Below are positions 51,401 through 52,930 of a stretch of DNA of 64,000 nt, piece after piece. The DNA comes from an uncultured Alphaproteobacteria bacterium (lineage in GTDB: Bacteria > Pseudomonadota > Alphaproteobacteria > Rs-D84): the NCBI GenBank assembly GCA_944389555.1, contig CALXMU010000004.1, positions 14,042 through 78,041 of the forward strand, in the 5' to 3' direction. Under the pieces are notes generated by a model. It saw only the letters and a program-made list of their open reading frames with translations, did no database searches and was not told the origin of the DNA. Each line of letters begins with the position of its first letter. Within the stretch, counting starts at the first letter, position 1. The position numbers and the translations under genes were made by a program.

Positions 51401-52930
51401 TTATTGAACGCGTACCACGCTGCAACTTGTACCGCTGAATTCCAGTAACTTATTGCATAAATCCTGGGCCGCAGTTACATCGGATAAAGGACCTATACGC
51501 AAGCGGTATAAGCGCCCCGCAGAAGAATCTGAACCCAGATCACCGACGCCTTGTTCATCTACCGCGAAGAACACCATGTCTTTATACGGGGTCAAAATAC
51601 CCTTACCGTTTTCACCGCTAAATTTAGCCAATAGGTTCGCCCAATAATCATCTAACGCTTTTACAGATGTATCAGATTTTAATTCAACCGCAACACCAGT
51701 TTGATTACTTGTAATCAATGGAATATTAGATTGTGGTAAGAATGAACCTGCTGTCAATCTTTCTGTCGGTATCATTGATAACCCACTTGTAGAAGCCCCC
51801 GCTGATGAGGCAGGAATTCCGTAACCTGCTGGTATATAGTAACCACTTGTCGTACCTGACGCCATATTACCTATCATCATAGGGGTTGTCGTATATCCGT
51901 TTGCTGAGGCATTTATAGCGTTTACATCTGCAGTATACGCAATATTGTTTAATGATTGACCGGACATAATGCTTTGCGCAACATTTGCTTCTGCTAAAGC
52001 CATGACAGAGGCTGTATCTGCAATCAAGAATGGTTTTTCACGTTTCTTTATGCAAACGATACGTTGACCGCTACGTAAAACCATATCGCCAACCGCTTCA
52101 ACAATCAATAGGCGCCCGTCTTCGCCGTCTGTGCGGAAACTGACAGGGGATTCACCACCTTCTATCAACAATGAAACCACAGGTCGTTGCGTCATTGAGA
52201 TTACTTTGTCTCCAAAATCAATGTAAGTAAATATTTGATCGCGCCATACGCGTTCCGGAGCAATTACATAATCATCAGGATTTGGAACATAAATATCTAA
52301 GTCAAAGCGGAATTCGGACGGATCTATTTTCATTGATTTTATCCAACCGTAGTCTTCACCGTCTACCCCAATAGTATTGTTTGCGTTTGACACTTTTTTG
52401 AATATAGAAGAAGAACCACCAGCTGCGTTAGTTGCGCCTGTCGCGTTTGGCAGGTTTGAATTACCGTCTAAAGAAACGTCTACTTGTGAATATGTAATTT
52501 CACTAGAATTTGATGGTTCGCTACGTAAATAGAAAATATATTGGTTACCTGATTCACCTGTCACTATAAGATTGGTATCAGAACCTTGGTTTGTTGATAC
52601 TGGTGTAATATACATAGTACTGCCACCAATTGTTGCGTCAATAGAGAACAACCCGTCATTACCTATTACTGCATCTGAGATTTTTTCGCCAGAAGGTAAA
52701 GTTATCAAAGTGGTCATACCATTACGTAATTTAACTGGTAAAACACTGCCTTTTGACCATGTAAGTTGTGCATAGCCAGGTTTCAGACTGCCCGCTGCCA
52801 TATTTGCCGTCGGGTTATCCCATGCACTTTGTACCCCGTAATTTGTCCCAGCAGCGTTTGCAACACCGCCATATAACAGTGCCAAGCATAGTATGGATAC
52901 GTTTAATTTCATAACCTTTGCAAATGTCAT
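51401..52930 (-). CDS. virB9: VirB9/TrbG-like T4SS core protein fused to a C-terminal SPOR-like domain
   Basis: Signal peptide. VirB9 N-domain KPGYAQLTWSKGSVLPVKLRNGMTTLITLPSGEKISDAVIGNDGLFSIDATIGGSTMYITPV...TNLIVTGESGNQYIFYLRS. C-domain QIFTYIDFGDKVISMTQRPVVSLLIEGGESPVSFRTDGEDGRLLIVEAV. Then a Ser/Gly/Thr-rich spacer and terminal GRLYRLRIGPLSDVTAAQDLCNKLLEFSGTSCSVVRV (SPOR-like). Confidence 0.75.
   Translation of the reverse strand: MTFAKVMKLNVSILCLALLYGGVANAAGTNYGVQSAWDNPTANMAAGSLKPGYAQLTWSKGSVLPVKLRNGMTTLITLPSGEKISDAVIGNDGLFSIDATIGGSTMYITPVSTNQGSDTNLIVTGESGNQYIFYLRSEPSNSSEITYSQVDVSLDGNSNLPNATGATNAAGGSSSIFKKVSNANNTIGVDGEDYGWIKSMKIDPSEFRFDLDIYVPNPDDYVIAPERVWRDQIFTYIDFGDKVISMTQRPVVSLLIEGGESPVSFRTDGEDGRLLIVEAVGDMVLRSGQRIVCIKKREKPFLIADTASVMALAEANVAQSIMSGQSLNNIAYTADVNAINASANGYTTTPMMIGNMASGTTSGYYIPAGYGIPASSAGASTSGLSMIPTERLTAGSFLPQSNIPLITSNQTGVAVELKSDTSVKALDDYWANLLAKFSGENGKGILTPYKDMVFFAVDEQGVGDLGSDSSAGRLYRLRIGPLSDVTAAQDLCNKLLEFSGTSCSVVRVQ

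What the first reader, a model, noticed from the sequence alone, without database searches (positions are those of the whole stretch)
51401..51710. C-terminal SPOR-like peptidoglycan-binding domain fused to the VirB9 homolog
After the VirB9 C-domain and a roughly 120-aa Ser/Gly/Thr-rich spacer, the last ~90 residues read GVAVELKSDTSVKALDDYWANLLAKFSG...GRLYRLRIGPLSDVTAAQDLCNKLLEFSGTSCSVVRV. This has the two-part SPOR signature (a hydrophobic first strand, then YRVRVGP...A...L...G). The same signature is seen in the bona fide SPOR domain of the PBP5 gene at 41323-42492 in this window.

SPOR domains bind denuded septal glycan strands. A VirB9-SPOR fusion would tether a secretion-system outer core to peptidoglycan, possibly at division sites. 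That is a role normally played by separate lytic transglycosylases or VirB7-like lipoproteins.
Basis: partly seen in the sequence, partly recalled or inferred. Interest (0 to 1): 0.6.

Follow-up and report, generated by a model that had tools for sequence, protein, structure and literature searches.

The report
VirB9 fused to altered SPOR-like domain
A secretion-machine outer-shell protein (VirB9) in a tiny-genome gut bacterium carries a real, conserved cell-wall-binding (SPOR-type) domain at its tail. The one residue that normal SPOR domains need to grip septal cell wall is always replaced, so it probably anchors the machine to the wall in a non-standard way.

Summary
Window 51404-51709 (minus strand) encodes the last 102 residues of one uninterrupted 509-aa VirB9 gene (51401-52930), which lies between virB8 and virB10.

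- **Fold.** The last ~98 residues are a SPOR-fold domain. Pfam SPOR scores 24.8 bits when the domain is scanned alone (cut-off 21). Two AlphaFold models give a beta-alpha-beta-beta-alpha-beta fold, and their top three PDB matches are the RlpA and DedD SPOR domains. A profile of the domain retrieves bona fide SPOR proteins from 1.84 billion sequences.
- **Distribution.** The fusion is conserved at full length in Candidatus Enterousia (259 species-level genomes). It also occurs in a second uncultured alphaproteobacterial clade that is only 34% identical.
- **The caveat.** The signature SPOR glutamine (FtsN Q251, RlpA Q270) is glutamate in 240 of 240 fused domains. Q251E is the published lesion that weakens binding to denuded glycan. 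The neighbouring aromatic residue is also lost. The arginine pair and a cysteine pair are kept.

Tethering to the wall is therefore plausible. Canonical septal targeting is not supported. This is a new variant of a known kind, of moderate interest.

The parts
51404..51697 (-). SPOR-fold domain (VirB9 residues 412-509): beta1 413-420, alpha1 ~423-438, short helix ~447-452, beta2 453-458, disordered loop 461-472, beta3 474-482, alpha2 485-499, beta4 504-508
   Evidence: Pfam SPOR scores 24.8 bits when scanned alone. AF2 models have pLDDT 77.8 and 81.8 and the same topology. Foldseek's top three PDB hits are RlpA and DedD SPOR domains. A profile of the domain retrieves Pfam-SPOR proteins.
51683..51685 (-). 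Codon GAA = Glu416, at the position of the signature SPOR glutamine (FtsN Q251, RlpA Q270)
   Evidence: Alignment A4: all 9 canonical SPORs have Q; of the 10 VirB9-type domains, 9 have E and 1 has D. E is present in 240 of 240 members of both clades. The distance from this residue to the start of alpha1 is 7 residues, the same as in RlpA. The codon was checked.
51497..51511 (-). beta3 motif LYRLR (residues 474-478), equivalent to RlpA L307-H-R309-V-R311 (hydrophobic contact plus the arginine patch for the MurNAc lactyl carboxylate)
   Evidence: The HMM alignment to 6i05 reads 'LHRVRLGP' against 'LYRLRvGP'. L474, R476, L477 and R478 are invariant in 240 sequences. The residue roles come from PMC6895207.
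51422..51457 (-). Two invariant cysteines, C492 (alpha2) and C503 (beta4), a likely periplasmic disulfide
   Evidence: Both are invariant in 240 of 240 sequences. They are also invariant in the related alphaproteobacterial SPOR proteins. The disulfide itself is inferred and was not measured.
51698..51757 (-). Conserved pre-domain motif LTAGSFLPQSNIPLITSNQT (residues 392-411)
   Evidence: Mean column conservation is 0.90 within the Enterousia clade. The motif is recognisable in P0151, P0173 and P0130 but absent from the P0162 clade. Its function is unknown.
51758..51910 (-). Variable linker rich in Ser, Gly, Thr, Ala and Tyr (residues 341-391)
   Evidence: This is the least conserved part of the protein, at 0.56-0.64. 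Its length and sequence are not conserved between clades.
51911..52042 (-). Conserved extension after the VirB9 C-terminal domain (residues 297-340, FLIADTASVMALAEANVAQS...)
   Evidence: Conservation is 0.83-1.0 within the clade. The extension lies beyond the Pfam CagX match. It also lies beyond the part that aligns to TrwF residue 237 of 266.
52043..52768 (-). VirB9 core with N- and C-terminal domains (residues 55-296)
   Evidence: Pfam CagX scores 76.5 bits against a cut-off of 34.2. The family profile aligns to both domains of R388 TrwF/VirB9, PDB 7o3j. TIGR02781 VirB9 scores 52.3 bits, below the equivalog cut-off.
52853..52930 (-). Probable Sec signal peptide MTFAKVMKLNVSILCLALLYGGVANA|AG
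   Evidence: Read directly from the sequence: a hydrophobic core followed by A-N-A. No signal-peptide predictor was run.
52954..53688 (-). virB8, directly upstream
   Evidence: Pfam VirB8 scores 37.5 bits against a cut-off of 23.2.
48918..51377 (-). virB10, directly downstream (about 819 aa from the ATG at 51377), with long N- and C-terminal extensions
   Evidence: Pfam TrbI scores 55 bits at residues 406-612. NCBIfam T4SS_VirB10 also matches. The start codon was checked.
42274..42483 (+). Canonical SPOR domain of DacA/PBP5, used as an internal comparator; it keeps the Gln (AGVQFGAF)
   Evidence: Pfam SPOR scores 35.2 bits at residues 318-387. See also alignment A4.

Best explanation
The 3' end of virB9 encodes a divergent SPOR-fold domain that descends from the two-cysteine SPOR domains of Alphaproteobacteria. 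A 115-residue, partly disordered linker joins it to a complete, secreted VirB9.

VirB9 C-terminal domains form the outer ring of the outer-membrane core complex in 14 or more copies. Each machine would therefore dangle a ring of these domains into the periplasm, within reach of the sacculus.

I propose that they hold the core complex to the glycan backbone of the cell's own peptidoglycan, through the retained beta3 Leu/Arg/Arg patch. The invariant Gln-to-Glu change and the lost aromatic on beta1 would shift the specificity, or weaken each site, relative to canonical binding of denuded glycan. The function would then be multivalent anchoring or positioning in the wall, not FtsN-style chasing of the septum.

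- **Shown:** gene continuity, VirB9 identity, SPOR fold and homology, conservation, and the residue substitutions.
- **Inferred:** periplasmic location, wall binding, avidity and changed specificity.
For: - The gene is a single ORF with a VirB9 core and a SPOR hit.
- It sits in a virB8-virB9-virB10 operon.
- Two independent AF2 runs give a SPOR fold, and the top PDB hits are RlpA SPOR (6i09, 6i05) and DedD SPOR (6ztg), with probability 1.0 and target-normalised TM-score 0.67-0.74 for the two RlpA entries (0.27-0.29 for full-length DedD).
- A profile built only from the VirB9 tails finds 53 proteins at E<=1e-3 among 1.84 billion. I scanned 42 of them with Pfam: 39 match SPOR, including the more distant VirB9 fusions; the rest are mostly multi-SPOR proteins.
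- A mixed profile hits CwlC SPOR 1x60 at E 1e-6.
- The domain is as conserved as the VirB9 core (0.885 against 0.873), while the linker is variable.
- The architecture is kept end to end between clades that are 34% identical, in 259 species-level genomes and in a second clade with 1108 hits.
- L474, R476 and R478 match the glycan contacts L307, R309 and R311 of RlpA.
- The organism makes peptidoglycan: PBP1A, mraY, ftsW and murG are in the window. It also has a canonical SPOR on DacA.
- There is a precedent for a wall-binding core-complex subunit that positions a type IV secretion system (T4SS): DotK (PMC10266036).
- The 14-or-more-fold stoichiometry of VirB9 in the core complex is described in PMC12857230.
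Against: - Glu replaces the most conserved glycan-contacting Gln in every member. The same substitution in FtsN lowers glycan binding and septal localisation. A carboxylate there should repel the MurNAc lactyl carboxylate.
- The F274-equivalent aromatic is Asp, His or Asn.
- Sequence-only searches against the PDB with the family-only profile find no SPOR.
- hhalign against the DacA SPOR is weak and covers only the second half.
- No binding data exist, and the organism is uncultured.
- I could not inspect the model coordinates, so the cleft geometry and the Cys-Cys distance are unverified.
Confidence: 0.5

Rival explanations
1. Canonical SPOR function. The domain binds amidase-generated denuded glycan at the septum. 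This recruits or retains the T4SS core at division sites, which then become new poles.
For: - The fold and homology are SPOR.
- The arginine patch is kept.
- SPOR domains share under 20% identity yet all characterised ones bind denuded glycan (bioRxiv 10.1101/2022.07.01.498525).
- Mid-cell assembly followed by polar retention is documented for Dot/Icm (PMC10266036).
- Fourteen-fold avidity could compensate for a weak site.
Against: - Q-to-E is invariant in 240 of 240 sequences, and it is the exact FtsN lesion used to break denuded-glycan binding.
- The aromatic that stacks on NAM(3) is lost.
- The first half of the Pfam SPOR model does not align.
- The same genome keeps Gln in its DacA SPOR, so the change is specific to the VirB9 copy.
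Confidence: 0.2
2. A repurposed protein-protein module. The SPOR fold no longer binds the wall. Instead it docks onto another envelope protein, such as the extended VirB10, VirB8 or a lineage-specific partner, or it forms an extra periplasmic ring of the core complex.
For: - The glycan-binding signature on beta1 is lost.
- New invariant surface-type residues are specific to the VirB9 version: W430, D458, R507 and the C-terminal Q509.
- The co-encoded VirB10 carries unusual extensions in both clades.
- Expanded T4SSs commonly add core-complex subunits (PMC12857230).
Against: - The retained L/R/R glycan-contact triad and the Cys pair are exactly those of wall-binding relatives.
- A variable linker of about 50 residues fits a tether better than a fixed structural ring.
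- No partner has been identified.
Confidence: 0.2
3. A surface-exposed adhesin. The linker and domain are displayed outside the cell and bind the wall or glycans of a partner or host cell on which this reduced-genome bacterium depends.
For: - Rs-D84/Enterousia are proposed to be obligate symbionts or parasites that obtain metabolites from other cells (PMC12306168).
- Inactive VirB1 homologues have been proposed as adhesins that bind recipient peptidoglycan in Gram-positive T4SSs (PMC12857230).
- Altered specificity (Q to E) could reflect a foreign ligand.
Against: - No evidence was found of any export route across the outer membrane.
- The conserved Cys pair is shared with periplasmic SPOR relatives.
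- The peptidoglycan of a Gram-negative partner would not be exposed.
Confidence: 0.06
4. An artefact: a chance resemblance, or a separate or frameshifted gene.
For: - The whole-protein Pfam score (20.9) falls just under the cut-off (21), and only half the model aligns.
- phmmer against the PDB gives only antibody noise.
Against: - The frame is single and is conserved at full length in more than 240 clusters.
- Fold and profile evidence are independent of each other.
- The domain is under purifying selection equal to the VirB9 core.
Confidence: 0.01

Closest known systems
SPOR domains of FtsN, DamX, DedD, RlpA and CwlC (Pfam PF05036)
   Same: - The beta-alpha-beta-beta-alpha-beta fold is the same, and the best PDB matches are RlpA and DedD SPOR.
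- Profile-level homology is detectable.
- The beta3 motif [YF]R[LV]R.GP, with its Leu/Arg/Arg glycan contacts, is kept.
- The location is C-terminal and preceded by a flexible linker.
   Different: - The signature beta1 Gln is Glu and the following Gly-x-aromatic is lost.
- There is a 10-20 residue insert between alpha1 and beta2 and a disordered loop between beta2 and beta3.
- The host protein is a secretion-system subunit, not a divisome or wall-hydrolase protein.
Alphaproteobacterial two-cysteine SPOR proteins, including multi-SPOR proteins found by the profile (for example P0134, P0147, P0157)
   Same: They share the alpha2 Cys and beta4 Cys pair, the YRLR.GP motif and the overall spacing. 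They are the most similar non-VirB9 sequences.
   Different: They keep WVQLG[SA][FYW] on beta1 and are not attached to VirB9.
Canonical VirB9/TrbG/TraO/TrwF
   Same: The N- and C-terminal domains align to TrwF and Pfam CagX matches. The gene sits between virB8 and virB10.
   Different: - Canonical proteins end about 30 residues after the C-terminal domain; TrwF is 266 aa. This one continues for about 185 more residues.
- It scores far below the NCBIfam VirB9 equivalog cut-off.
Legionella Dot/Icm DotK (OmpA-like, wall-binding core-complex lipoprotein)
   Same: It is a core-complex-associated module that binds peptidoglycan. Binding is sensitive to glycan chemistry (N-acetylation), and the module is needed to keep the machine at the poles (PMC10266036). 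This is the role proposed here.
   Different: - The fold is unrelated (OmpA-like, and it recognises the peptide stem/DAP region).
- DotK is a separate lipoprotein, not a fusion to the VirB9-like subunit.
- It belongs to a type IVB system.
Rickettsiales vir homolog (rvh) T4SS
   Same: - The genes are chromosomal and scattered among housekeeping genes.
- In the related locus L081 the order is virB8, a small ORF, virB8, virB9, virB10, virB11, which matches my recollection of the rickettsial arrangement.
   Different: - To my knowledge, rickettsial VirB9 proteins have no SPOR tail.
- Membership of the rvh lineage was not tested phylogenetically.

Membership tests
SPOR domain (PF05036) | Match to the Pfam model at or above the gathering score | tested here: inconclusive
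   The score is 24.8 bits when the domain is scanned alone, against a cut-off of 21. It is 20.9 bits in the full protein. Only model positions 38-76 align. About 20-40% of family members carry a precomputed PF05036 hit.
SPOR domain (PF05036) | RNP-like beta-alpha-beta-beta-alpha-beta fold: a four-stranded antiparallel sheet backed by two helices | tested here: met
   AF2 places strands at 5-13, 46-51, 67-75 and 97-101 and helices at 16-31 and 78-92, with pLDDT 81.8 and five concordant models. The top three Foldseek PDB hits are SPOR domains in both runs.
SPOR domain (PF05036) | Detectable profile-level homology to bona fide SPOR proteins | tested here: met
   Of 42 non-redundant hits of the family-only profile, 39 are Pfam SPOR proteins. 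A mixed profile hits CwlC SPOR at E 1.1e-6, then FtsN and RlpA more weakly.
SPOR domain (PF05036) | Conserved beta1 glutamine that hydrogen-bonds the glycan (FtsN Q251, DamX Q351, RlpA Q270) | tested here: not met
   The residue is Glu in 240 of 240 sequences. Among the 10 VirB9-type sequences aligned, 9 have Glu and 1 has Asp; all 9 canonical SPORs aligned have Gln. The role of Gln is described in PMC6895207, and the effect of Q251E in bioRxiv 10.1101/2024.05.13.594014.
SPOR domain (PF05036) | Gly-[AS]-aromatic after the Gln (RlpA F274 CH/pi contact) | tested here: not met
   The window sequence is K418-S419-D420. Clade 2 has G/A at 418 and H/N/G at 420. Neither clade has a conserved aromatic.
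SPOR domain (PF05036) | beta3 hydrophobic residue plus arginine pair (RlpA L307, R309, R311) | tested here: met
   L474, R476 and R478 are invariant. They align with the LHRVR motif of 6i05.
SPOR domain (PF05036) | Binds denuded (peptide-free) glycan and localises to the septum | not testable with these tools
   This needs sacculus binding, calorimetry or a localisation assay.
VirB9/TrbG/CagX | Pfam CagX match above the gathering score, covering both domains | tested here: met
   The score is 76.5 bits against 34.2, over residues 55-296 and model positions 5-197 of 198. The profile aligns to TrwF residues 37-115 and 165-237.
VirB9/TrbG/CagX | Encoded between virB8 and virB10 | tested here: met
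   VirB8 lies at 52954-53688 and the TrbI/VirB10 gene at 48918-51425 on the same strand. The order is the same in L010, L081 and L082.
VirB9/TrbG/CagX | NCBIfam VirB9 equivalog cut-off | tested here: not met
   TIGR02781 scores 52.3 bits against a cut-off of 217.7. The protein is a divergent member of the wider family and not an equivalog.
VirB9/TrbG/CagX | N-terminal signal peptide (periplasmic export) | tested here: inconclusive
   A hydrophobic N-terminus and an A-N-A motif were seen by inspection only. No predictor was available.
Rickettsiales-type rvh T4SS | Scattered chromosomal loci with duplicated virB8/virB9/virB4 and a tandem virB6 array | tested here: inconclusive
   The virB8-9-10 genes stand alone among housekeeping genes. 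L081 has two virB8 copies with a 58-aa ORF between them. Five tandem polytopic paralogues at 627-7216 have no detectable VirB6/TrbL similarity.

The most novel reading that the evidence does not exclude
The invariant Gln-to-Glu switch may create a SPOR variant with a new ligand specificity. One candidate ligand is N-deacetylated (positively charged GlcN) glycan, or another edited form of peptidoglycan. Canonical SPOR domains are predicted not to bind N-deacetylated glycan (PMC6895207).

Placement of this T4SS would then be read out from the chemical editing state of the sacculus. This would be a SPOR-based counterpart of the DotK/PgdA logic in Legionella. A still more radical version has the tethered domain reaching a partner cell's wall in an epibiotic parasite.
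Probability: 0.15. Interest if true: 0.75.

Novelty: new variant of a known kind. Interest (0 to 1): 0.5.

Why it matters
How type IV secretion machines are fixed in, and positioned relative to, the cell wall is understood for very few systems. DotK in Legionella is the main example.

A VirB9 that carries its own wall-binding fold would be a built-in anchor present in 14 or more copies per machine. It occurs in a large, uncultured, genome-reduced group of gut Alphaproteobacteria whose lifestyle probably depends on this secretion system.

For SPOR biology, this is a natural, strictly conserved Q-to-E variant of a residue that has so far been changed only by mutagenesis. It offers a direct test of whether the SPOR fold can evolve new ligand specificity or a role that does not involve glycan.

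It also warns against annotating function from a Pfam SPOR hit alone.

Tried and rejected
- **PDB sequence searches.** phmmer of the tail and hmmsearch of the family-only profile against PDB sequences gave only antibody and phosphorylase noise. Only a profile mixed with canonical SPORs reached CwlC, FtsN and RlpA.
- **Comparison with the in-window DacA SPOR.** hhalign of the family profile against this domain was weak (pairwise E 0.006) and covered the second half only.
- **Whole VirB9 against the PDB.** phmmer found nothing. The profile was needed to reach TrwF.
- **Literature.** The primary FtsN mutagenesis paper (Duncan 2013, PMC3837948) is not held. I relied on two papers that cite it. No paper combines 'SPOR domain' with VirB9, and none combines VirB9, peptidoglycan-binding and core complex.
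- **Are the five tandem membrane paralogues at 627-7216 VirB6 proteins?** There is no Pfam, NCBIfam or PDB support, and no Pfam domain on 120 homologues. I did not adopt the idea.
- **A VirB7-like lipoprotein in the window.** I did not search for one. A 58-aa ORF between the two virB8 copies of L081 was seen but not analysed.
- **Frameshift, separate gene or chance match.** Rejected.
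Full report
**1. What is at the coordinates.**

The window region 51401-51710 lies on the minus strand. It is the 3' end of one uninterrupted ORF, 51401..52930, of 509 aa. Positions 51401-51403 are the stop codon (TAA).

Pfam places CagX/VirB9 at residues 55-296 (76.5 bits, cut-off 34.2). It places SPOR (PF05036) at 469-506. That hit scores 20.9 bits in the full protein and 24.8 bits (E 2.7e-5) when the last 102 residues are scanned alone; the cut-off is 21. 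In both cases only the second half of the model aligns.

The neighbouring genes on the same strand are virB8 (52954-53688) and a long virB10 (48918-51377, TrbI domain). The flanks are housekeeping genes:
- tRNA-Trp, nusG, rplK, rplA, rplJ and rpoB on one side;
- yidC, lspA and a kefB-like gene on the other.

This is therefore a chromosomal, isolated virB8-9-10 cluster. The PBP5/DacA gene at 41323-42492 carries a clear canonical SPOR domain (35.2 bits).

**2. Is the fusion real and conserved?**

The full protein has 1202 database relatives. The best 120 are 73-100% identical, cover 100% of the query and are 465-537 aa long (all but three 500-537). About a fifth carry a precomputed SPOR hit.

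A scan of one genome per species found the tail in 259 genomes. The 80 fetched are uncultured Alphaproteobacteria, many named Candidatus Enterousia. This genus belongs to order Rs-D84. Its members are gut bacteria with genomes under about 1 Mb, proposed to depend on other cells (PMC12306168).

Within this clade the tail is as conserved as the VirB9 core (mean column conservation 0.885 against 0.873). Residues 341-391 are variable (0.56-0.64). Residues 297-340 and 392-411 are conserved.

A profile of the tail, searched against 1.84 billion representatives, also recovered more distant VirB9 fusions: P0124, P0129, P0130, P0151, P0162 and P0173. P0162 stands for a second large clade, with 1108 hits at E<=1e-10; the 120 listed cover 95-100% of the query, and about 40% are flagged SPOR. 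P0162 aligns end to end with the window protein at 34% identity.

The gene contexts of these distant fusions are also T4SS loci:
- L081 has virB8, a 58-aa ORF, virB8, virB9-SPOR, virB10 (2274 aa) and virB11.
- L082 has virB8, virB9-SPOR, a 283-aa ORF and virB10, with lspA adjacent.

Synteny in a complete 958-kb Enterousia MAG (L010) is the same as in the window. The fusion is therefore old, vertically inherited and under purifying selection. It is not a frameshift or an assembly artefact.

**3. Is the tail a SPOR domain?**

Three independent lines say the fold and ancestry are SPOR.

- (a) AlphaFold2 with a family-only alignment gave pLDDT 77.8. With an alignment spanning both clades it gave pLDDT 81.8 and pTM 0.73, with five concordant models. 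Both runs give beta1-alpha1-(short helix)-beta2-(disordered loop)-beta3-alpha2-beta4.
- (b) Foldseek against the PDB ranks the P. aeruginosa RlpA SPOR domain (6i09, 6i05) and E. coli DedD SPOR (6ztg) as the top three in both runs. The E-value is about 1e-3 and the probability 0.99-1.0. The target-normalised TM-score is 0.67-0.74 for RlpA. Generic ferredoxin-like folds follow at lower probability.
- (c) The profile built only from VirB9 tails finds 53 proteins at E<=1e-3. Of 42 that I scanned, 39 are Pfam SPOR proteins, mostly multi-SPOR alphaproteobacterial proteins. A mixed profile reaches CwlC SPOR (1x60, E 1.1e-6), FtsN and RlpA.

Sequence-only searches with the family-only profile against the PDB fail. 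hhalign against the single DacA SPOR sequence is weak and covers the second half only. This shows how diverged the first half is.

**4. The important qualification.**

Aligning VirB9-type tails with canonical relatives shows that canonical SPORs have [FY]W[VA]Q[LI]G[AS][FYW] on beta1. The VirB9 tails have [VI][AS][VI]E[LIF]xxx.

The Gln is Glu in 240 of 240 sequences from both clades and Asp in P0129. The register is supported by the identical 7-residue spacing from this residue to the start of alpha1 in the model and in RlpA.

This Gln is FtsN Q251, DamX Q351 and RlpA Q270. It makes the persistent side-chain hydrogen bonds to the MurNAc lactyl group and the GlcNAc N-acetyl group in the RlpA-glycan crystal structure (PMC6895207). 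[quoted passage not shown]

The aromatic equivalent to RlpA F274 is Asp in the window clade and His/Asn/Gly in the second clade.

In contrast, the beta3 contacts are kept. L474-Y-R476-L-R478 aligns with RlpA L307-H-R309-V-R311 and is invariant. Two cysteines, C492 in alpha2 and C503 in beta4, are invariant and shared with the alphaproteobacterial SPOR relatives. They suggest a periplasmic disulfide, which I infer but could not measure. The DacA SPOR of the same organism keeps the Gln, so the change is specific to the VirB9 copy.

**5. Mechanism.**

VirB9 C-terminal domains form the outer ring of the O-layer of the core complex, in 14 or more copies (PMC12857230). The profile alignment to TrwF ends at TrwF residue 237 of 266. 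About 185 residues here are therefore extra: a conserved segment, a variable linker of about 50 residues, a conserved 20-residue motif, and the SPOR fold.

My best-supported reading (confidence 0.5) is a multivalent periplasmic tether from the core complex to the glycan backbone of the sacculus. It would use the retained Arg patch, with specificity or affinity changed by the Gln-to-Glu switch. The closest documented functional analogue is Legionella DotK, an OmpA-like core-complex lipoprotein. Its wall binding is sensitive to glycan acetylation and helps keep Dot/Icm at the poles (PMC10266036).

The rivals are:
- a repurposed protein-protein module (0.2);
- a surface adhesin (0.06);
- an artefact (0.01).

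All functional steps are inferred. Only anatomy, homology and conservation are shown.

**6. Known or new?**

Full-text searches found no paper that joins 'SPOR domain' with VirB9. None joins VirB9, peptidoglycan-binding and core complex. Sixteen papers mention both 'SPOR domain' and type IV secretion; none of the 14 listed, judged by title and abstract, concerns such a fusion. Sources name these proteins only 'TrbG/VirB9 family'.

I rate the finding a new variant of a known kind. It combines two known modules, and the SPOR cleft carries a family-specific change. Interest is moderate (0.5). It is a clean, testable case for T4SS-wall coupling and for SPOR ligand evolution, but there are no functional data and the organism is uncultured.

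**7. Limits.**

- Model coordinates could not be inspected.
- The whole genome was not available, so I could not check for amidases, deacetylases or the remaining T4SS genes.
- The primary FtsN mutagenesis paper was not held.

Noticed in passing
window 627-7216 (627-1925 -, 1925-3361 -, 3358-4566 -, 4563-5858 -, 5897-7216 +): Five adjacent genes encode 400-480 aa proteins with 6-7 hydrophobic segments and Lys-rich C-termini. They are distant paralogues of one another (blastp E-values from 5e-13 to 8e-6). None has a Pfam, NCBIfam or PDB match, and the family is conserved in Enterousia (1036 relatives, none of the 120 listed with a Pfam domain). The layout recalls the tandem VirB6 arrays of Rickettsiales T4SSs, but no similarity to VirB6/TrbL was detected.
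   Followed up: partly
window 48918-51377 (-): VirB10 is unusually long, at about 819 aa. Its N-terminal region has a weak 'choice-of-anchor D' hit at residues 57-128. It has an extension of about 220 aa beyond the TrbI domain, ending in a Cys-rich tail (CEGGALPDEYGCCPGEIYTDMGEQGFNCCPETGGDCFPPIL). In the second clade the VirB10 is 2274 aa.
   Followed up: partly
window 41323-42492 (+), SPOR at 42274-42483: DacA/PBP5 (Peptidase_S11) carries a canonical C-terminal SPOR domain with the Gln intact (AGVQFGAF). This implies that denuded-glycan targeting exists in this organism.
   Followed up: partly
window 48269-48778 (-): A small ORF lies directly downstream of virB10. It is probably about 116 aa, starting at MKNQNAQ. 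It has no family match, and an ORF in the same position (115 aa) is present in L010. No virB11, virD4 or virB4 follows in this window, unlike locus L081.
   Followed up: partly
L081 1395-1571: A 58-aa ORF lies between two virB8 copies upstream of the VirB9-SPOR gene of the second clade. Its position recalls the small VirB7-like lipoprotein gene of rickettsial rvh loci. I did not analyse it.
   Followed up: no
window 51698-51757 (-), VirB9 residues 392-411: The motif LTAGSFLPQSNIPLITSNQT just before the SPOR fold is nearly invariant in Enterousia. It is recognisable as (I/V)LPxHxVPL(I/V) in some distant fusions but absent from the P0162 clade. Its function is unknown.
   Followed up: partly
window 9307-15103 and 35596-37662: Cell-wall synthesis genes are present despite the reduced genome: PBP1A, mraY, ftsW and murG. 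A ComEC competence channel gene is also present.
   Followed up: no
L056 and L066 (same MAG, CAXHMP01): Two different contigs of one MAG each encode the VirB9 tail, at 77% identity to the query. This could be two gene copies or a mixed bin.
   Followed up: no
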